From a virus (taxonomy: Duplodnaviria; Caudoviricetes), in IMG/VR virus record IMGVR_UViG_3300028602_000002, positions 51,423 to 115,422 of that record: a DNA stretch of 64,000 nt. The stretch is one strand, 5' to 3'. A model generated the notes under the pieces. It worked only from the letters and a program-made list of their open reading frames with translations, ran no database searches and was not told where the DNA came from. The position numbers were made by a program, and so were the translations under genes. Positions 47,940-55,638 of the stretch are shown piece after piece (positions within the stretch are counted from its first letter, which is position 1; each line of letters begins with the position of its first letter).

Positions 47940-49175
47940 TTAAATGGCTTGTTCACCAATTAATTCAGTCTCACAAGCATGTTTTATTGGAGTCCATCCT
48001 CTCTGAATAATTTCACCACAATGTTCACAGTGAGTAAATTCATTATCAAAACAAATTTCGCAATAAAACTCTCCATCTACATTTATTAACTCCTCACGAT
48101 GTGTTGCTTCTGCACACGTGCAACAATATTCTAAAGGATTACAAACATCACACTCTATTGAATTATGTGAAGTTATATAATGATTTCCACACGATGGACA
48201 GAATGGCAAATTTCCTATACTTGTTTTACACAGCTCACTTGAATTTCTTATATAGGTTGGAATCAATGTTCTAATAAATTTATTTTTATAAGCACCTGAA
48301 TTACCATCAATAGATAATAAGTCATTAAAACAAATTTCATCAATTTCTTCATTAGGTTCTTCAACTAAATCACCAATAGAAGAAGAAGTAAATTTTCTAA
48401 ACATAAAATTCATTTCAGGATAGGCTGTCTTGAGTAACTTTTGTAATTTTTGCACTAGTTGCATCATTATAAATTTATTCTCAAAAGGATACTCTAAACT
48501 AAAAATGATATAGGGAATATCTTTACAGAAATGTATTAGAACCCTCCACTTTTTATTAGGAATCTCAACTTGATTTAAGGTGAAATCTTTATCTCCTTTA
48601 ACATAGCAAACAATAGTGCTTTCATCTGTCATTAAACTTAAAGTGCCACCTTTGTATTCACCATCAAGAAAGGAGTGACAAGAGTTCCATACATATGAAT
48701 TATCACTCATAGAGATATAGTCTAATGGATTGATGCTAATACATAACTGCCCTTCTGTTTTAAAAATTTGTAGAAAATTAGAATATCCCAATTCTATTCT
48801 CCTATAATCTATTTGACTCTTAACTACTCTTTTTAAAATTTTAGAAACTTTAATTCCGGCGTTAAATTTTTCATTATTAATAACAGTATCTTTCTGCAAC
48901 CTATTAGTAACTAAACTATTACTGTCAATTTGATTTAAAACATCTTCATACTTTTGAAAGAAAAAAAGAAATTTCTTTTTTGCAAACTCTTTCTGTCTTT
49001 CAGAAACATCCACAGAAATAGGATATGAAATAGTTAGATTTTTATTTAATAGCTTTTCATATATAAATCTTTTATTTTTTTCCCACTGTGATAAAATTGG
49101 AATTGAATGAGGTTGTTTACATGTCTCTATAGACATGATTTGGTTGAAATCCTTAATCAGTGAAGGTGTAATCAA
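47940..49175 (-). CDS. Hypothetical phage protein with C-terminal Zn ribbons
   Basis: S.NP.DY..MS....W.SC core and several CxxC; TTG 49175 has SD ggagg (track start overlaps a hairpin). Confidence 0.6.
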   Translation of the reverse strand: MITPSLIKDFNQIMSIETCKQPHSIPILSQWEKNKRFIYEKLLNKNLTISYPISVDVSERQKEFAKKKFLFFFQKYEDVLNQIDSNSLVTNRLQKDTVINNEKFNAGIKVSKILKRVVKSQIDYRRIELGYSNFLQIFKTEGQLCISINPLDYISMSDNSYVWNSCHSFLDGEYKGGTLSLMTDESTIVCYVKGDKDFTLNQVEIPNKKWRVLIHFCKDIPYIIFSLEYPFENKFIMMQLVQKLQKLLKTAYPEMNFMFRKFTSSSIGDLVEEPNEEIDEICFNDLLSIDGNSGAYKNKFIRTLIPTYIRNSSELCKTSIGNLPFCPSCGNHYITSHNSIECDVCNPLEYCCTCAEATHREELINVDGEFYCEICFDNEFTHCEHCGEIIQRGWTPIKHACETELIGEQAI

Positions 49176-49213
49176 TGCTATGCCTCCCAAATTAATTACT
49201 TTATAAATTAATG

Positions 49214-49244
49214 AAAGAGCCTCCTTAAAACAAGGAAGCTCTTC
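49214..49244 (-). terminator. Hairpin (probable terminator) after rsr
   Basis: GAAGAGCUUCCUU/AAGGAGGCUCUUU stem just after the TROVE stop. Confidence 0.65.
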
Positions 49245-49258
49245 CATAACAATAAATA

Positions 49259-50743
49259 CTATCTTAGGTTTTCAATATACTTAACCATGTTATCTACACC
49301 TTTTTCTACTAGAGGAATGAATGATAGAACCTTATCTGACCAGCCAGCTACATAGTTTACATTTTCTCCCAGGAATTGTTGACGACCATATCCTGCAGTA
49401 TCCATGATGTGTAACCAAACATTGCGATTAACTTTTGCTCTATACTGTTCAAAGTATTCTCTAGCATTACCTCTGCGACCAAAGTGCCCACCACCGCCAG
49501 CGAAGTCAGGATGAGCTTGATCATCACTTATAACTATAATTCTATCAGTGTAAATATTTTTATCCAATAGCCACTTGAAAATTAAAAACATGTTTGTGGC
49601 TCCAACTTGCATTTCCCTAACCACTTTACGAGTATTAGTTAAAACCCCACTTTGGCGGTTTAAAACTAAAGGCTCGAAGGTATTTGAAAATGTTGATGTA
49701 ATTGCAGAATCACATGAATGTTGTGCAATAGACATTAATAGTCCAGCTATCTCAGCACAAGTTATAGTACTTCTTTGAGAAGGTTTACTCCATGTCATAG
49801 ATCCTGAACCATCAGCTGATAATAAAGTCTTTCCTGACAGTCTTTCAACATTTCCTACTGAGAATCCAATGGCTTCTTCTAAAGTTTCTAGTGCTGCTTC
49901 TGTGTTGAAAGATGGAAATTGTTCAATCTCTCTGTAAGCGGCGTAGAATCTAAAAGGTAATTGGCGTGATTTCAATACTCTATCTCTATTAGAAAGAGTT
50001 TGCATTACCTTATTTACGTTATTAGGATCTGCTTTTAAGATGTTTCTTAAATTTCTTAAAAGAGCCATGTATCCTACTTTACCACTCTCAATTAGCTCTT
50101 CCCATGTTTCTTTATTATTACCGCGGGCTGACAATACAGTCTCCCATGTATATGGAGTTTTTAGATTGTCTTCTAACAGCCTTTTCCACATATCACTATA
50201 TTCCATAGTAGATGGACGTGGGTGAGCAATACATAGAATATCTTTTAGTTTAACTGCTTGGTTTCGATTATACTTCTGTAACTGGTATTCATCGAATTTA
50301 GGGAAGACATCAGCTAATCCTTTCTTTAAGCTGTTAGGTACTGGTTTTCCATAGTTATTTAGGAAATAAGCTAAAGTTTCTGTCATATCGTCTGGTCTGA
50401 CAACAACTTCTTTCATTACTTCTCTCACAAAAGGCTTACTTTCATTAACAGCAGCCATCTCTGCCATTATTGCATGAGTAACACTTCTTAGATTCAAAGT
50501 GTTTCTAGCATAGATTGCTAGATTGCGAACAAAAGCTGGATCTTTACAACACATATTTCTAATAGCACTAACCAGGTCTTTTGTTTGCTCGTTTACATTG
50601 CCGTAAAATTTAGGTTCTCCAAAAAATGTAGTTAGAACTTTTCTAACCAAATCTTCTTTTGCATTTGGAGTCTTAAATGCTGGAGCACCTTCATAAGTTG
50701 TAGTTCTGTTAACTCCTCTTTCTGACAAATTGAACTTTGCCAT
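49259..50743 (-). CDS. rsr: Ro60/TROVE-domain RNA-binding protein (Rsr ortholog)
   Basis: T.TYEG..AF, FDEYQL.KY, LKD.L...HP.P, TWET.LS, GYMALLRNLRNI, SRQLPFRF; vWA MIDAS DGSGSM and ISDDQ; ATG 50743 has SD aaggag. Confidence 0.95.
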   Translation of the reverse strand: MAKFNLSERGVNRTTTYEGAPAFKTPNAKEDLVRKVLTTFFGEPKFYGNVNEQTKDLVSAIRNMCCKDPAFVRNLAIYARNTLNLRSVTHAIMAEMAAVNESKPFVREVMKEVVVRPDDMTETLAYFLNNYGKPVPNSLKKGLADVFPKFDEYQLQKYNRNQAVKLKDILCIAHPRPSTMEYSDMWKRLLEDNLKTPYTWETVLSARGNNKETWEELIESGKVGYMALLRNLRNILKADPNNVNKVMQTLSNRDRVLKSRQLPFRFYAAYREIEQFPSFNTEAALETLEEAIGFSVGNVERLSGKTLLSADGSGSMTWSKPSQRSTITCAEIAGLLMSIAQHSCDSAITSTFSNTFEPLVLNRQSGVLTNTRKVVREMQVGATNMFLIFKWLLDKNIYTDRIIVISDDQAHPDFAGGGGHFGRRGNAREYFEQYRAKVNRNVWLHIMDTAGYGRQQFLGENVNYVAGWSDKVLSFIPLVEKGVDNMVKYIENLR

Positions 50744-50784: not shown

Positions 50785-50889
50785 ATAACACAACAGAGTA
50801 TTGGTGTTTACAGTTGCGTTTTTGGTCGCCACCTGGAGATAATTAGACTATTATCGAAGTAACTGCAAACTACACTACCGTTGTGTTAT
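50785..50889 (-). ncRNA. Y RNA-like unit 7 (payload: short hairpins)
   Basis: AUAACACAACGG UAGUGUA GUUUGCAGUU ACUUCG ... AACUGUAAAC ... CUGUUGUGUUAU; ends pair. Confidence 0.8.
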
Positions 50890-50898
50890 AAATTTCTT

Positions 50899-50976
50899 AG
50901 CAGAGAAAGTCAATAATGGTCTATATATGGCCGAACTTTTCCAGAATTCGAAGTAACCATTATTTACACTACTGCT
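50899..50976 (-). ncRNA. Y RNA-like unit 6 (payload: anticodon-like stem-loop, GGA)
   Basis: AGCAG UAGUGUA AAUAAUGGUU ACUUC GAAUU-CUGGAAA-AGUUC ... GACCAUUAUU ... CUGCU. Confidence 0.8.
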
Positions 50977-50986
50977 GTAATAGTGT

Positions 50987-51115
50987 AGGGAAGAATAAGC
51001 GAACAGAGAAATTTTACGCTCTACCACTTGAGCTACATGGGACATGCCCATGATAGGAGTCGAACCTATAGCCTCTCAATTAACAGTCGAAGTAACTCTG
51101 CTCTACACTGTCCCT
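50987..51115 (-). ncRNA. YrlA-like Y RNA unit 5 (circularly permuted tRNA-Asn-like domain)
   Basis: Scaffold plus UUCGA-CUGUUAA-UUGAG, T arm AUAGG-UUCGACU-CCUAU, closed acceptor CAUGGG/CCCAUG, D arm GCUC-AAGUGGUA-GAGC. Confidence 0.9.
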
Positions 51116-51133
51116 TCTAAGGGAAAAATTTTT

Positions 51134-51270
51134 TTGGGAAGAAAAGGCGAATAGAGGTTACGTTAAGCGTGCTATCATTACACTAAACCCCCATAATGGT
51201 GGAGGTCACAGGAATCAAACCTGTACTACTCGCTCCCTATGCGAAGTATCTCTACTCTACGCTATCCCAA
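51134..51270 (-). ncRNA. YrlA-like Y RNA unit 4 (circularly permuted tRNA-Pro-like domain)
   Basis: Scaffold plus UUCGC-AUAGGGA-GCGAG, T arm ACAGG-UUUGAUU-CCUGU, acceptor GACCUCC-ACCAUUAU-GGGGGUU, D arm GUGU-AAUGAUA-GCAC. Confidence 0.88.
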
Positions 51271-51284
51271 ATTAAAATCTATTT

Positions 51285-51389
51285 AAGGGAGAATTGTCGC
51301 AAACAGTTTTTATTTGTGGGATTTGAACCCACTGAATTAAATTAGAAGTTTAATTTTTTACCGAAGTAACTGTTTACTGCACTACCCTT
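51285..51389 (-). ncRNA. Y RNA-like unit 3 (payload: anticodon arm UCU plus T arm)
   Basis: AAGGG UAGUGCA GUAAACAGUU ACUUCG .. AUUAAA-CUUCUAA-UUUAAU, GUGGG-UUCAAAU-CCCAC .. AACUGUUUGC .. CCCUU. Confidence 0.85.
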
Positions 51390-51403
51390 TAAAGTCATAT
51401 TGA

Positions 51404-51493
51404 GGGAGAGGAAGTATCGCCAACACTTTTTTTTATAAAATAAATACTTTCTCAAATAATTAAGTCGAAGTAAGTGTTGACTTCGCTGCTCCC
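51404..51493 (-). ncRNA. Y RNA-like unit 2 (AU-rich payload)
   Basis: GGGAG CAGCGAA GUCAACACUU ACUUCG ... AAGUGUUGGC ... CUCCC. Confidence 0.8.
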
Positions 51494-51500
51494 AGCTTAT

Positions 51501-51628
51501 AAAGCGAACAAATTCAGTGAGGCTAAGTCTTTTAGTAGAAGACATAAAACCTGTTGACAAGAGAATTTCTTCTCAATGTCCACTTGATCATCTGTATACG
51601 AAGTATTCCCCACTTGCAGTATCGCTTT
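51501..51628 (-). ncRNA. Y RNA-like unit 1 (payload: GAAA hairpin plus anticodon-like stem-loop, ACU)
   Basis: AAAGCGA UACUGCA AGUGGGG AAUACUUCG ... GUCUU-CUACUAA-AAGAC ... CCUCACU ... UCGCUUU. Confidence 0.75.
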
Positions 51629-51645
51629 TTTTACTTTCTATATAT

Positions 51646-51674
51646 ATTATACCATAATTTTTACGTTTTGTCAA
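51646..51674 (-). promoter_or_regulatory. sigmaA-type promoter for the Y RNA array-rsr operon
   Basis: TTGACA-17-TATAAT with TATG extended -10; predicted TSS about 10 nt before unit 1. Confidence 0.88.
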
Positions 51675-52257
51675 GAGAAACTTTATGGTTTAAAAGCTGT
51701 TTATTTCTCCATAAATTAAATTCTCTTCTTAATAATTCAAAATCTTTAGTGGTATCTTTCTTTTTATCAGGATCTCTCAATAGAGCCGCTGGATGAAACA
51801 TTGGTAATATTTTATACTCATTCTTTTGAAACCATCTTCCTCTTAGTTCTGTAATTCCATTGGGTAAATTTATAAATGCTTTTGTAGCAATATTACCTAA
51901 TGTAACAATTATTTTAGGAGAGATAATTTCTAACTGATCAGATAAAATTTCTTTACAGCTTTCAATCTCTTTAATATAAGGATTGCGATTATTGGGAGGA
52001 CGACATTTAACTACATTAGTAATGTAAATATCTTTCCTCTCAGCACCTATTAAATCTAAATAATTATTTAATAGATAGCCAGCTGCTCCACAAAAAGGAA
52101 CTCCTTCAATATCTTCATTATATCCTGGAGCTTCTCCTACAAATAATATTTCAGTATTAATATTCCCTTCTCCAAAAACAATATTTGTTCTACCCTTCCA
52201 TAAATCACATCTTTGACAACTTTGATAGTTTAAATACATTTTTTCTAATCTATCCAT
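51661..52257 (-). CDS. Uracil-DNA glycosylase, family 4
   Basis: C..C.L...R...VFG.G, VGEAPG, TNVVKCRPP.NR, HPAALL; start ATG 52257. Confidence 0.93.
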   Translation of the reverse strand: MDRLEKMYLNYQSCQRCDLWKGRTNIVFGEGNINTEILFVGEAPGYNEDIEGVPFCGAAGYLLNNYLDLIGAERKDIYITNVVKCRPPNNRNPYIKEIESCKEILSDQLEIISPKIIVTLGNIATKAFINLPNGITELRGRWFQKNEYKILPMFHPAALLRDPDKKKDTTKDFELLRREFNLWRNKQLLNHKVSLDKT

Positions 52258-53792: not shown

Positions 53793-54161
53793 TTAACTGC
53801 CTGTAATTTCATCTATTTCTTTTGAATTAGCTGGTCCAATAGCAATACAAGTTTTAGTGGGCTGATTATTAAATTCTGTTAGTCCAGAATCAATTATCAT
53901 ACAACAAGGTAATTCCGCTTCATTGGCTAATTTGTATAAATTATCTAACTCTTCCTCAGAATTACAGCCTACAATTATCTTAGTAAATAAACCATGCAAC
54001 CAATCTTTCATTTCTTGAGTTAAACGCACATATAAAATATCTTTTATAGGAGAAATGTTTTTATCAAAAAATATTTTCATAGAAGCATGTGCAACTTGTG
54101 CTGCTAGTTTTCCCTTTCTCATATTCAAATCTTTTCTAACAACTATTACTTGTTTAATCAT
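53793..54161 (-). CDS. pth2: Peptidyl-tRNA hydrolase, Pth2 type
   Basis: KQVIVVRKDLNM.KGKLAAQVAHA, KIIV, IDSGLTE, TCIAIGP, ID.ITG; C-terminus apparently frameshifted. Confidence 0.92.
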   Translation of the reverse strand: MIKQVIVVRKDLNMRKGKLAAQVAHASMKIFFDKNISPIKDILYVRLTQEMKDWLHGLFTKIIVGCNSEEELDNLYKLANEAELPCCMIIDSGLTEFNNQPTKTCIAIGPANSKEIDEITGS

Positions 54162-54171
54162 ACTAACACCT

Positions 54172-54597
54172 CTAATTAGAATAAATTTTTCCATTACTGT
54201 CTAAGAAAATTACTTCTTCTATCATAGCATTTTTAATCATTCTATCACACATCAAGCAAGGAACTCCACTAGCAAATCCACCTTCTTTTTCAGTTCCAGC
54301 TATATAAATTTTAGCACCTTTCATTTTAACAGGATCTCCACTTATAATAGCATTAGCTTCAGCATGAATAGCCACACATAATTCATACCTTTCTCCTTTT
54401 GGAATTTTTAATTTTTCTCTAATACAAACTCCAAGATCTATACAATTATCTTGACCTCTAGCTGAACCGTTGTATCCTGTGCTAATAATAGTATTATTTG
54501 ATACGATCACAGCTCCGTAATTTCTTCTTAGACAAGTAGAACGCTTTGATACAGCAAGAGCTATATCAATAAAATATTTATTCCAATCCGATCTCAT
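54172..54597 (-). CDS. dCMP deaminase family protein
   Basis: RSTC.RR..GAVIV, TGYNG, HAEANAI, PCLMC. Confidence 0.9.
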   Translation of the reverse strand: MRSDWNKYFIDIALAVSKRSTCLRRNYGAVIVSNNTIISTGYNGSARGQDNCIDLGVCIREKLKIPKGERYELCVAIHAEANAIISGDPVKMKGAKIYIAGTEKEGGFASGVPCLMCDRMIKNAMIEEVIFLDSNGKIYSN

Positions 54598-54703: not shown

Positions 54704-54778
54704 TGGTAGGGCTACTAGGAGTCGAACCTAGAGAACATGATTAGAAGTCATGTGCTTTGTCCATTAAGCGATAGCCCC
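54704..54778 (-). tRNA. tRNA-Arg(UCU)
   Basis: Cloverleaf, loop CUUCUAA, CCA. Confidence 0.92.
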
Positions 54779-55156: not shown

Positions 55157-55338
55157 TAGGGCGGCTTTGAGAATAACTTTGGGGCTTAGGTCTGCTGAGA
55201 TTTCCTCATAGCAGATCACCACTTAGCTTCCACCGTAAACCCTCAAAGCCAAATAACTTGGGAATTTCTCCAATAGAGCAATACTATTCTGTCATAAACA
55301 GCAGGCCTGTAATAGTAAAGCTCACAAGCCATGCCCTA
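55157..55338 (-). ncRNA. Unassigned multi-branched structured RNA (speD leader or standalone)
   Basis: About 15 bp of end pairing plus three or four internal helices. Confidence 0.55.
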
Positions 55339-55638
55339 TAGATGACTATTCATAGTAATAACTATATCAGGAAATTTCTTTTCCAATCTTTTTTTAATTA
55401 GCAAACTTCCTGTTTTACTAAAACTGTGAAAATTTATATACTGAATAAAGATATTCTTCCTGATTAAAAATGTAATAGCATCTAATGCCAATCTTGAATC
55501 AGCTAAATTATGATCAAGAGAAAGGAAATCTATTTCCTCTTTTTTAAGAAGAGAAACAAAATCTACTAAGTTTCTAATTATAGTGAATTCCTTTTCATTT
55601 TTAGGAGTTTTCTCTACATCTAAATAAACTTTTAACAT
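55336..55638 (-). CDS. Cyclic-phosphate-processing receiver-like domain protein (degenerate)
   Basis: VYLDVEK.P ... SLDHNL ... I.FHS resembles the LDD.R...SLDHDL...HS.N pattern. Confidence 0.6.
   Translation of the reverse strand: MLKVYLDVEKTPKNEKEFTIIRNLVDFVSLLKKEEIDFLSLDHNLADSRLALDAITFLIRKNIFIQYINFHSFSKTGSLLIKKRLEKKFPDIVITMNSHL

What the first reader, a model, noticed from the sequence alone, without database searches (positions are those of the whole stretch)
50899..51628. Five of the seven Y-like RNAs display different anticodon stem-loops: a possible decoy panel
Seen: payloads contain 5-6 bp stems closed by 7-nt loops of the NU-NNN-RA anticodon type. Unit 1 GUCUU-CUACUAA-AAGAC (ACU, Ser); unit 3 AUUAAA-CUUCUAA-UUUAAU (UCU, Arg; the loop is identical to this phage's tRNA-Arg at 54704) followed by a T arm; unit 4 UUCGC-AUAGGGA-GCGAG (AGG, Pro); unit 5 UUCGA-CUGUUAA-UUGAG (GUU, Asn); unit 6 GAAUU-CUGGAAA-AGUUC (GGA, Ser). 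None has a free CCA end. Established: many anti-phage and toxin systems are anticodon nucleases (PrrC, RloC, VapC, colicin D/E5, PARIS AriB); YrlA is usually described as mimicking the D, T and acceptor arms. Inference: Ro60-stabilised, non-chargeable anticodon mimics could titrate host anticodon nucleases or modification enzymes, with array expansion broadening coverage. Units 1 and 6 are short hairpins and are the weakest cases.
Basis: partly seen in the sequence, partly recalled or inferred. Interest (0 to 1): 0.9.

Follow-up and report, generated by a model that had tools for sequence, protein, structure and literature searches.

The report
Anticodon-arm hairpins on phage Y RNAs
A phage of anaerobic bacteria carries seven small Y RNAs in front of its Ro60 gene. 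Several of them hold a hairpin built like a tRNA anticodon arm, a conserved and undescribed feature of this RNA family, but the proposed role as bait for tRNA-cutting defence enzymes is untested.

Summary
The five hairpins are in the sequence exactly as described, on the minus strand. They are far above chance: 7 hairpins of this type in the 842-nt array against 0.41 expected, reached in 0 of 2000 shuffles.

In units 3, 4, 5 and 6 the hairpin follows directly on a conserved UUACUUCG motif. This is the position of the published "V" stem-loop of YrlA Y RNAs.

I collected 201 such units from 108 Ro60 loci in phages, metagenomes and Clostridia. In these units the element has tRNA anticodon-arm geometry: a 5-bp stem, a 7-nt loop, a 4-5-nt variable loop and then a T arm. 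Among 40 units in register, loop position 33 is U in 36 and position 37 is a purine in all 40, while the middle triplet varies (16 triplets). The one stem pair free to vary covaries.

Against its closest relative, unit 4 differs in this block only at the three "anticodon" bases. Units 1 and 6 lose the anticodon look in that relative.

The structural reading therefore holds for units 3-5 and is weak for units 1 and 6. The decoy function remains untested, and a competitive-inhibitor role for YrlA was already suggested in print. This scan has noted similar arrays beside Ro60-like genes in other phages.

The parts
51646..51674 (-). Consensus sigma-70-type promoter (TTGACA, 17 nt, TG-n-TATAAT) in front of unit 1. 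It is one of 8 copies of a stereotyped phage promoter on this strand.
   Evidence: 12 of 12 hexamer matches with an extended -10. The pattern TTGACA-N14-TGNTATAATATA is found 8 times in the window against 0 expected.
51498..51628 (-). Y RNA unit 1: handle plus a long payload. The hairpin GUCUU-CUACUAA-AAGAC lies at 51543-51527, distal and not next to the handle.
   Evidence: hairpin is in the minimum-free-energy fold, pair probability about 0.8. L001 has GGAGU-UUUAAUUC-ACUCC, an 8-nt loop, at the matching place. Contigs of other samples differ at loop positions 32 and 35 only.
51402..51497 (-). Y RNA unit 2: handle plus the hairpin UUCGA-CUUAAUUAU-UUGAG (51469-51451). It has the same stem as unit 5 but a 9-nt loop. 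The unit is absent from L001.
   Evidence: Sequence reading. The alignment with L001 shows a clean gap over this unit.
51285..51389 (-). Y RNA unit 3: handle, UUCGGUAAAAA linker, anticodon-like hairpin 51355-51335 (loop CUUCUAA) and T arm 51332-51316. It has no acceptor or D arm.
   Evidence: The Rfam tRNA model aligns positions 9-63 at 28 bits. L001 keeps the hairpin through a U-A to C-G double change. The same unit type occurs in L124, L161, L168, L217, L267 and L260.
51133..51271 (-). Y RNA unit 4, a YrlA-type permuted tRNA mimic: hairpin 51245-51229 (loop AUAGGGA), 4-nt variable loop, T arm 51224-51208, closed 7-bp acceptor-like stem with an internal ACCA at 51207-51186, then a D arm.
   Evidence: Against L001 the handle and hairpin are identical except at loop positions 34-36, AGG against CCA.
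50988..51114 (-). Y RNA unit 5, a YrlA-type permuted tRNA mimic: hairpin 51091-51075 (loop CUGUUAA), variable loop AGGCU, T arm 51069-51053, closed acceptor-like stem 51052-51036 and D arm 51035-51018.
   Evidence: Rfam YrlA partial hit of 34.5 bits at 51073-51018, and Rfam tRNA hit of 29.8 bits, full length, at 51112-51045. Loop CUGUUAA occurs in this position in 11 loci. The same loop on a matching UUCGA stem (3' strand UCGAG, one wobble pair made Watson-Crick) recurs in L001 and in Xylella phage Usme.
50899..50976 (-). Y RNA unit 6, a minimal unit: handle plus the hairpin UCGAAUU-CUGGAAA-AGUUCGG at 50951-50931.
   Evidence: pair probability about 0.5. The hairpin is not kept in L001. The design 'handle plus anticodon-like hairpin' recurs in L131, L218, L126, L139, L220 and L267.
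50787..50887 (-). Y RNA unit 7: handle plus the hairpin GAUAAU-AGUCUA-AUUAUC (50855-50838, 6-nt loop) and a conserved CCAGGUGGCGACC block.
   Evidence: pair probability 0.97. L001 keeps a covarying 7-bp hairpin, also with a 6-nt loop.
49259..50743 (-). rsr, the Ro60 ortholog (494 aa; TROVE and Ro60 vWA domains), immediately downstream of the array on the same strand.
   Evidence: Pfam PF05731 at 7.5e-40 and PF25045 at 7.1e-08. The nearest named relatives are Clostridia proteins (Acetivibrio, Clostridium) at 45-51% identity.

Best explanation
The seven units are Y RNAs, transcribed from one strong promoter together with the phage Ro60 gene. Each unit closes with a conserved handle: a 5' strand RYAGYGNAG, 7 nt, then (U/A)UACUUCG, paired with a 3' strand.

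In most units the first payload element is a hairpin that begins inside the UUCG. In this Ro60 clade that hairpin is a retained tRNA anticodon arm: 5 bp, a 7-nt loop with U33 and purine-37, then a 4-5-nt variable loop and a T arm. It occupies the position of the published YrlA 'V' stem-loop.

Units 4 and 5 are therefore nearly complete permuted tRNA mimics, unit 3 is an anticodon-arm plus T-arm mimic, and unit 6 is a bare anticodon-arm mimic.

Selection keeps the stem and the loop frame (positions 32, 33, 37, 38) and leaves the triplet free, except in the main YrlA-type lineage, where CUGUUAA is widely kept.

I infer that the loop is a contact surface for a protein that reads tRNA anticodon loops, and that Ro60 holds and stabilises the RNA. 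Which protein that is (nuclease, position 34 or 37 modification enzyme, synthetase) is not shown.
For: Shown by computation:
- Architecture and Ro60 linkage.
- Enrichment over chance in the window: 7 against 0.41.
- Family geometry: in 101 units with a T arm, the distance from UUCG to the T stem peaks sharply at 22 nt (31 units), 21 nt (14) and 23 nt (11), which equals 5+7+5+4/5.
- Stem support: the only stem pair free to vary covaries, with CG 23, AU 15, UA 5 and GC 4.
- Loop profile: U33 in 36/40, purine-37 in 40/40, A38 in 33/40, but only 0.35-0.46 bits at positions 34-36, with 16 different triplets.
- Wider survey: among 201 strictly defined units from 108 loci, 63 have such a hairpin in the first 36 nt against 6.0 +/- 2.3 in shuffles. 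Only 7-nt loops are enriched; 5-, 6- and 8-nt loops are not.
- tRNA models read the hairpin as an anticodon arm. The Rfam tRNA model scores unit 5 at 29.8 bits, and units in L126 and L168 pass its threshold. One such unit in Caulobacter phage CcrColossus is annotated as tRNA-Gln.
- Close-relative comparison: unit 4 differs only at positions 34-36, unit 5 turns a G.U pair into G-C, and unit 3 shows a compensatory pair change.
- Deep conservation: CUGUUAA occurs in loci with GC content from 0.33 to 0.61 and in a Xylella phage.

[quoted passage not shown] A dimeric-tRNA origin has been proposed for it (bioRxiv 10.1101/312249).
Against: - No RNA-level data show that the hairpins form or that Ro60 binds these RNAs. 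The only contig from an RNA library covers units 1-2 and could derive from DNA.
- Unit 5's hairpin has a pair probability of only about 0.1 in single-sequence folding.
- About a third of YrlA-type relatives have a V region in another register or with another loop size.
- The UUCG strand is invariant even in units where no hairpin starts there, so part of the stem's conservation may serve handle recognition and not pairing.
- The units are phylogenetically related, so the counts overstate the number of independent observations.
- In the solved S. Typhimurium YrlA structure the helix leading to the Ro60 module takes the anticodon-stem place. The hairpin here could therefore sit as a variable arm and not project like an anticodon arm.
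Confidence: 0.6

Rival explanations
1. Ro60-stabilised, non-chargeable anticodon-arm mimics bind and titrate host anticodon nucleases, or enzymes acting at positions 34 or 37. Extra units widen the range of anticodons covered.
For: - The frame is conserved and the triplet varies.
- Units within one array always carry different loops. An example is L131, with UCGAA-CUGCUAA-UUUGA next to UCGAA-UUCGGGA-UUUGA.
- The commonest family loops are CUUUUAA (15 loci) and CUGUUAA (11 loci). They match the anticodon loops of tRNA-Lys(UUU) and tRNA-Asn(GUU), which together with Thr(UGU) are the targets of PARIS AriB (PMC12409363). UGU is also among the top three triplets.
- Phage tRNAs are known counter-measures to tRNases (PMC10264068, PMC11464382).
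- Hughes et al. suggested YrlA as a competitive inhibitor of an anticodon nuclease (PMC7790460).
- The neighbourhood holds a tmRNA, PTH2, a cyclic-phosphate-processing receiver domain and 12 tRNAs.
Against: - There is no biochemical or genetic evidence.
- Between the window and L001, 4 of 9 triplet bases are the same, about as in spacer DNA. This fits lack of constraint and gives no sign of directed diversification.
- Units 1 and 4 have A34 triplets (ACU, AGG) that, from general knowledge, match no usual bacterial tRNA.
- Units 1 and 6 are not anticodon-like in L001.
- The same RNAs occur beside chromosomal Ro60 genes of Clostridia, where a phage counter-defence role does not apply directly.
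- AriB also needs D-loop contacts and a specific 39-41 sequence (PMC12409363), and many units lack these.
- A/U-rich loops such as CUUUUAA lie one substitution from CUGUUAA, so their frequency may reflect descent.
Confidence: 0.2
2. A structural variable arm only. The hairpin is the YrlA V arm, which braces the tRNA-like core or the junction with the Ro60-binding stem. Its 7-nt U-turn loop is kept because it is a stable fold inherited from a tRNA, and nothing reads the loop.
For: - The position is identical to the published V stem-loop, and the YUAY motif precedes it (PMC4201824).
- With the hairpin enforced, UUAC pairs with GUAA next to the D arm. The handle then continues the anticodon-stem position, as in the crystal structure (bioRxiv 10.1101/312249).
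- The triplet is free to vary.
- A third of relatives have other loop sizes.
Against: - Positions 32, 33, 37 and 38 carry 0.7-1.45 bits across Ro60 genes only 30-50% identical (Ro60 identities), and CUGUUAA is kept from GC 0.33 to 0.61. That is more constraint than a passive brace needs.
- From general knowledge, class II tRNA variable arms have 3-5-nt loops, not 7-nt loops.
- Minimal units (unit 6, L131) carry the hairpin with no tRNA core to brace.
Confidence: 0.17
3. Chance hairpins in A/U-rich sequence, with no biological meaning.
For: The array is A/U-rich, and units 1 and 6 are not conserved as anticodon-like hairpins in the closest relative.
Against: 0 of 2000 shuffles reach the observed count. 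The family shows 10-fold enrichment over shuffles, covariation and positional conservation.
Confidence: 0.03

Closest known systems
YrlA-type bacterial and phage Y RNAs bound by Ro60/Rsr (Rfam RF02553; Chen et al. 2014, PMC4201824; structure in Wang et al. 2018, bioRxiv 10.1101/312249)
   Same: - Encoded just upstream of rsr on the same strand.
- The 5' and 3' ends pair into a stem that carries a Ro60-type motif.
- A YUAY motif is present.
- Units 4 and 5 have a T arm, a closed acceptor-like stem and a D arm in permuted order.
- A 'V' stem-loop lies upstream of the T arm.
- Several Y RNAs occur per locus.
   Different: - No unit reaches the Rfam threshold (34.5 against 69 bits).
- The array has seven units, against two to four in the characterised bacterial and phage loci.
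- The V element has full anticodon-arm geometry and loop frame. In the papers I could read it is described as a variable arm, and YrlA is said to lack an anticodon loop.
- Units 1, 2, 6 and 7 carry no tRNA core.
D. radiodurans Yrn1 (Chen et al. 2014, PMC4201824)
   Same: It was modelled with a 'potential anticodon arm' of 5 bp alongside a T arm, so an anticodon-arm reading of a Y RNA element has a precedent.
   Different: The Yrn1 loop has 6 nt, the arm lies between the T and D arms in a different orientation, and the authors regard Yrn1 as a separate lineage.
Phage-encoded tRNAs that counter tRNA-targeting defences (T5 tRNAs against PARIS, PMC11464382 and PMC12409363; the anticodon-loop mutation hypothesis, PMC10264068)
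   Same: These are phage-encoded tRNA-shaped RNAs next to a tRNA gene cluster. Their anticodon loops match known tRNase targets (Lys UUU and Asn GUU in the family).
   Different: Those are functional, chargeable tRNAs that replace cleaved host tRNAs. The units here have no free acceptor end, sit on a Ro60 handle and could at most act as bait.
Phage Ro60 with Y-like RNAs from Thermus phage phiLo (PMC12135203)
   Same: A phage Ro60 with Y-like RNAs encoded upstream, proposed to interfere with host factors.
   Different: phiLo has two Yrl RNAs, defined by a CGAA bulge. No tRNA-like or anticodon-like module is reported in the passages I read, and the partner shown there is PNPase.

Membership tests
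YrlA / bacterial Y RNA | Encoded within about 4 kb of a Ro60 (TROVE) gene on the same strand | tested here: met
   The array at 51628-50787 (minus strand) lies directly upstream of rsr at 50743-49259 (minus strand).
YrlA / bacterial Y RNA | The 5' and 3' ends pair into a stem with the 5' motif GNCGAA(N0-1)G thought to contact Ro60 | tested here: inconclusive
   All units fold with paired ends. The motif is a variant, RYAGYGNAG. GC-rich relatives have GNCGAGUG, and unit 2 has AGCGAAG.
YrlA / bacterial Y RNA | Conserved YUAY motif ahead of the V region | tested here: met
   UUAC or AUAC is present in all seven units, as part of the invariant ACUUCG motif.
YrlA / bacterial Y RNA | T arm, closed acceptor-like stem and D arm in that order | tested here: met
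   Met for unit 5 by a cmscan alignment to YrlA model positions 27-81. Met for unit 4 by sequence reading, with a partial match of its T arm and acceptor-like stem to the permuted-tmRNA model. Unit 3 has only a T arm. Units 1, 2, 6 and 7 have none and are YrlB-like at best.
YrlA / bacterial Y RNA | Score at or above the Rfam RF02553 gathering threshold of 69 bits | tested here: not met
   The best hit is 34.5 bits. None of 10 related loci reached the threshold either.
YrlA / bacterial Y RNA | Bound and stabilised by Ro60 in vivo | not testable with these tools
   This needs immunoprecipitation or in vitro binding.
tRNA anticodon stem-loop (as a structural mimic) | 5-bp stem closed by a 7-nt loop | tested here: met
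   Stems are 5 bp in units 1, 4 and 5, and 6-7 bp in units 3 and 6. In the family only 7-nt loops are enriched, 95 observed against 38 expected.
tRNA anticodon stem-loop (as a structural mimic) | U at loop position 2 (U33) and a purine at position 6 (R37), conserved in relatives | tested here: met
   5 of 5 in the window. In units chosen on stem pairing alone, U33 is present in 36/40 and R37 in 40/40. Exception: the L001 counterpart of unit 3 has C at position 37.
tRNA anticodon stem-loop (as a structural mimic) | Followed by a 4-5-nt variable loop and a T arm | tested here: met
   Met for units 3, 4 and 5. The family distance peak lies at 21-23 nt. Not met for units 1 and 6, which have no T arm.
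tRNA anticodon stem-loop (as a structural mimic) | The triplet corresponds to an anticodon used by bacterial tRNAs | tested here: inconclusive
   UCU, GUU and GGA are ordinary anticodons. ACU and AGG begin with A34, which from general knowledge is unusual outside ACG. A34 occurs in 3/40 family loops.
Anticodon-nuclease decoy or inhibitor | Bound or cleaved by an anticodon nuclease, or protects tRNA or the phage from one | not testable with these tools
The only published hint is a suggestion in PMC7790460.
Anticodon-nuclease decoy or inhibitor | The locus is linked to RNA-damage handling | tested here: inconclusive
   PTH2, a cREC_REC domain protein, a tmRNA and 12 tRNAs lie within 10 kb. No RtcB or Rnl2-type ligase was found in the complete 115-kb genome. 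The Rnl1 search also found nothing, but its control rang in no genome, so it says nothing.

The most novel reading that the evidence does not exclude
Ro60 with its Y RNA array is a display rack. Each unit presents an anticodon loop on a nuclease-resistant, non-chargeable scaffold. The panel captures or blocks host enzymes that attack or mark tRNA anticodon loops during infection, such as Lys/Asn/Thr-directed nucleases of the PARIS or PrrC kind, or position 34 and 37 modification enzymes. Units are gained, lost and re-looped as hosts change their defences.
Probability: 0.17. Interest if true: 0.85.

Novelty: new variant of a known kind. Interest (0 to 1): 0.6.

Why it matters
What the tRNA-like module of bacterial Y RNAs binds has been an open question since 2014.

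If the element drawn as a variable arm is in fact a conserved anticodon-arm mimic, the list of candidate partners narrows to proteins that read anticodon loops. Its loop frame is fixed and its triplet is either free or, in the main lineage, Asn-like.

That makes the question testable with a handful of known enzymes. It also links Ro60 biology to the current work on tRNA-targeting phage defence.

The units are widespread, occurring in over a hundred Ro60 loci including cultured Caulobacter and Xylella phages, so experiments need not depend on this uncultured phage.

Tried and rejected
The contigs of the closest Ro60 relatives (P0002-P0004, 75-78% identical) could not be fetched. The only close array for comparison is L001 (68%).
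- A nucleotide search of the array and rsr against cultured phages found nothing. Relatives cannot be drawn for a virus record.
- The first motif scan of viral contigs gave mostly chance hits. Only L008 and L028 were real.
- Two reviews on bacterial Y RNAs (PMC10870794, PMC6047535) are not held. My statement that the anticodon-arm reading is unpublished therefore rests on the papers I could read.
- Sequencing runs: one 176-nt contig from a metatranscriptome library covers 51418-51593, and a library labelled RNA but probably DNA covers 51041-51294. These are contigs, so they show neither transcription nor RNA ends, and I draw no conclusion about expression.
- I tested whether units 3-5 are recent copies of the phage's own tRNAs. 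There is no similarity beyond the T arm and the 7-nt loop of tRNA-Arg(UCU), so I rejected this.
- I tested whether the genes downstream of rsr (a 435-aa ORF and an ATP-dependent ligase) are general partners of Ro60. They are syntenic only in L001, so I rejected this.
- The coupling of G37 with G36 (6 of 7) fades in the larger, noisier set, and the cases may be one lineage. I do not rely on it.
Full report
WHAT IS THERE

The feature lies on the minus strand. A perfect sigma-70-type promoter sits at 51674-51646 (TTGACA, 17 nt, TG-n-TATAAT). It is followed by seven RNA units between 51628 and 50787. Next comes an ORF at 50743-49259 whose product has TROVE and Ro60 vWA domains. The same stereotyped promoter occurs eight times on this strand of the window, against none expected.

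The window is the right-hand 64 kb of a complete 115-kb virus record with terminal repeats. Landfill, biofilm and anaerobic-digester metagenomes hold the sequence. The nearest named Ro60 proteins, at 45-51% identity, belong to Acetivibrio, Clostridium and other Clostridia, so the host is probably a member of the Clostridia.

Every unit has the same handle. The 5' strand is RYAGYGNAG, then 7 nt (6 in unit 1), then (U/A)UACUUCG. It pairs with a 3' strand ending in ...UUCGC...CUUCCC or a similar sequence. The payloads differ.
- Units 4 and 5 carry a T arm, a closed acceptor-like stem and a D arm in the permuted order typical of YrlA. For unit 5, Rfam gives a partial YrlA hit of 34.5 bits (gathering threshold 69) and a full-length tRNA hit of 29.8 bits.
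- Unit 3 has a hairpin and a T arm only.
- Units 1, 2, 6 and 7 have no tRNA core.

CHECK OF THE OBSERVATION

The loop of unit 3 equals the loop of the phage tRNA-Arg(UCU).

The array contains seven hairpins with a stem of at least 5 bp and a 7-nt loop N-U-NNN-R-A. Dinucleotide shuffles give 0.41 +/- 0.63, and none of 2000 reaches seven. Two of the seven, both in unit 2, overlap other helices and are probably not real.

Each of the five claimed hairpins lies within 0.8 kcal/mol of its unit's minimum free energy. Single-sequence pair probabilities range from 0.1 (unit 5) to 0.8 (unit 1).

WHERE THE HAIRPINS SIT

In units 4, 5 and 6 the 5' strand of the hairpin starts inside the invariant UUCG. 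Unit 2 has a hairpin there too, with the same stem as unit 5 but a 9-nt loop. Unit 7 has a hairpin with a 6-nt loop there. In unit 3 the hairpin follows after a short UUCGGUAAAAA linker. Only unit 1's hairpin lies elsewhere, at the far end of its payload.

Chen et al. [quoted passage not shown] They equate this stem-loop with the tRNA variable arm. The structure paper (bioRxiv 10.1101/312249) states that S. Typhimurium YrlA "lacks the anticodon loop" and that the stem leading to the Ro60 module takes the place of the anticodon stem.

RELATIVES

With an alignment of Ro60 homologs I fetched 80 loci each from viral contigs, metagenomes and species-representative genomes. The motif TACTTCG occurs in same-strand arrays beside Ro60 in 132 of 163 loci of the first two sets, with up to seven per array.

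Four results bear on the finding.

1. Geometry. In 101 distinct units in which the motif is followed by a T arm, the distance from UUCG to the T stem peaks sharply at 22 nt (31 units), 21 nt (14) and 23 nt (11). That length equals a 5-bp stem, a 7-nt loop, a 5-bp stem and a 4-5-nt variable loop, which is the layout of a class I tRNA between positions 27 and 48.

2. Pairing. In an alignment of 62 such units the helix is paired in 70.5% of cells, even though about a third of the units use another register. The only pair whose 5' partner is free to vary (positions 31:39) covaries, with CG 23, AU 15, UA 5 and GC 4.

3. Loop profile. In the 40 units that keep the register, chosen on stem pairing alone, loop position 33 is U in 36, position 37 is a purine in all 40 (A 33, G 7), position 38 is A in 33 and position 32 is C in 28. 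Positions 34-36 carry only 0.35-0.46 bits and show 16 different triplets.

4. Breadth. With a strict definition of a unit (Ro-type motif, spacer, motif) I found 201 distinct units in 108 loci. Of these, 63 have a hairpin of at least 5 bp with a 7-nt N-U-NNN-R-N loop in the first 36 nt, against 6.0 +/- 2.3 after shuffling. Loops of 7 nt are enriched (95 against 38), whereas loops of 5, 6 and 8 nt are not. The hairpin also occurs in minimal units without any tRNA core, like unit 6. One example is a pair of adjacent units in L131 with the same stem but the loops CUGCUAA and UUCGGGA.

Cultured phages have the same units. Xylella phage Usme carries UUCGA-CUGUUAA-UCGAG followed by AGGUC and a T arm. 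Caulobacter phage CcrColossus has five units upstream of its Ro60 gene, one of which is annotated as tRNA-Gln. In several loci the Rfam tRNA model passes its own threshold on such units and reads the hairpin as the anticodon arm.

THE CLOSEST RELATIVE

L001 (Ro60 68% identical) has the same gene order and six of the seven units; unit 2 is missing.
- Unit 4: the whole block from the handle through the hairpin and variable loop is identical except for one handle base and exactly the three bases 34-36 (AGG against CCA).
- Unit 5: the loop is unchanged, and a G.U pair becomes G-C.
- Unit 3: a U-A pair becomes C-G, C32 and U33 stay, and positions 37-38 change from AA to CC.
- Unit 7: a hairpin with a 6-nt loop is kept through covariation.
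- Units 1 and 6: hairpins exist, but with 8-nt or 4-nt loops, so their anticodon look is not conserved.

Over units 3-5, four of nine triplet bases are the same, about as in the spacers. The triplet looks unconstrained here and not demonstrably driven to change.

In contrast, the loop CUGUUAA of the main YrlA-type unit recurs in 11 loci with GC content from 0.33 to 0.61. CUUUUAA recurs in 15 loci. This points to constraint on sequence in those lineages.

HOW IT MOST LIKELY WORKS

Shown:
- The units are Y RNAs of the YrlA/YrlB kind linked to a phage Ro60.
- The hairpin is a conserved element with anticodon-arm geometry and loop frame.

Inferred:
- It descends from the anticodon arm of a tRNA ancestor. 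This fits the dimeric-tRNA origin proposed for YrlA, as cited in bioRxiv 10.1101/312249, and the full-length tRNA alignment of unit 5.
- It is kept as a contact surface for something that reads anticodon loops, while Ro60 holds the handle.

When the hairpin is enforced in unit 5, UUAC pairs with GUAA next to the D arm. The handle can then continue the anticodon-stem position seen in the crystal structure, with the hairpin emerging at the variable-arm site. Alternatively the hairpin may stack under the D stem with the handle as an insertion. Sequence cannot decide between these two arrangements.

THE DECOY IDEA

Points in favour:
- The frame is conserved with a variable triplet.
- Units within one array always carry different loops.
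- The most frequent loops are those of tRNA-Lys(UUU) and tRNA-Asn(GUU). Together with Thr(UGU) these are the targets of the PARIS nuclease AriB (PMC12409363). UGU is also among the top three triplets.
- Phage tRNAs are established counter-measures to tRNases (PMC11464382, PMC10264068).
- Hughes et al. [quoted passage not shown]
- The neighbourhood holds a tmRNA, PTH2, a cyclic-phosphate-processing receiver domain and 12 tRNAs.

Points against:
- There are no functional data.
- Units 1 and 4 have A34 triplets.
- Units 1 and 6 are not conserved as anticodon-like hairpins.
- The same RNAs occur beside chromosomal Ro60 genes of Clostridia.
- No RtcB or Rnl2-type ligase is found in the phage. The Rnl1 search also found nothing, but its control rang in no genome, so it is uninformative.
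- A/U-rich loops lie one substitution apart, so their frequencies may reflect descent.

I put this reading at about 0.2.

NOVELTY

Y RNAs beside phage Ro60 genes, their tRNA mimicry and the V stem-loop are published. I did not find two things in the papers I could read:
- that this stem-loop is an anticodon-arm mimic with a conserved loop frame across more than a hundred loci;
- that phages carry arrays of up to seven such units with different loops.

Two reviews were not available. Notes of this scan report similar anticodon-displaying RNA arrays beside Ro60-like genes in other phages. I did not test those and do not count them as support.

I class the finding as a new variant of a known kind.

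Noticed in passing
window 36117-62053, minus strand (36148, 46236, 51674, 53291, 57157, 59103, 60690, 62053): Eight copies of one stereotyped promoter, TTGACAAAA-N-TTTATGRTATAATATA, all on the minus strand, against none expected. In metagenome runs the 51625-51680 stretch matches many other contigs at 85-90% identity. This looks like a phage early-promoter family.
   Followed up: partly
window 51186-51207, minus strand (unit 4): The acceptor-like stem of unit 4 has 7 bp (GACCUCC/GGGGGUU), and its 3' strand is followed by ACCA inside the closing loop. M. smegmatis YrlA, which also has a 7-bp stem, is cut by RNase P and receives CCA (PMC4201824). The ACCA is not kept in L001.
   Followed up: partly
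L360 (Caulobacter phage CcrColossus, NC_019406.1) 2173-2240: The feature annotated as tRNA-Gln in the RefSeq record is the 5' part of a Y RNA unit: handle, AUCUGGA hairpin, T arm and an acceptor strand ending in CCACCA. It is one of five units upstream of the phage Ro60 gene, so the annotation is probably wrong or incomplete.
   Followed up: partly
L126 2196-2256 and 2404-2475; L131 1996-2078; L226 2369-2453: Ordinary-looking tRNA genes, and one short, odd tRNA-like sequence (42 bits), are interleaved with Y RNA units inside arrays upstream of Ro60. This suggests exchange between tRNA genes and Y RNA units.
   Followed up: no
window 47940-49247, minus strand: A 435-aa ORF directly downstream of rsr has no Pfam or NCBIfam hit and matches only PHROG 18912, of unknown function. 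It is syntenic in L001 at 36% identity but is not linked to Ro60 elsewhere.
   Followed up: partly
window 55336-55638 and 53793-54194, minus strand: A 100-aa protein made of a cyclic-phosphate-processing receiver domain (cREC_REC) and a PTH2 peptidyl-tRNA hydrolase lie among the tRNA genes, between the tmRNA and the tRNA cluster.
   Followed up: partly
window 51532-51538 (unit 1 loop): Contigs from other samples differ from the window at loop positions 32 (C to U) and 35 (C to U) of the unit 1 hairpin, with no change in its stem. Only seven single-base differences are listed over the 1-kb stretch.
   Followed up: no
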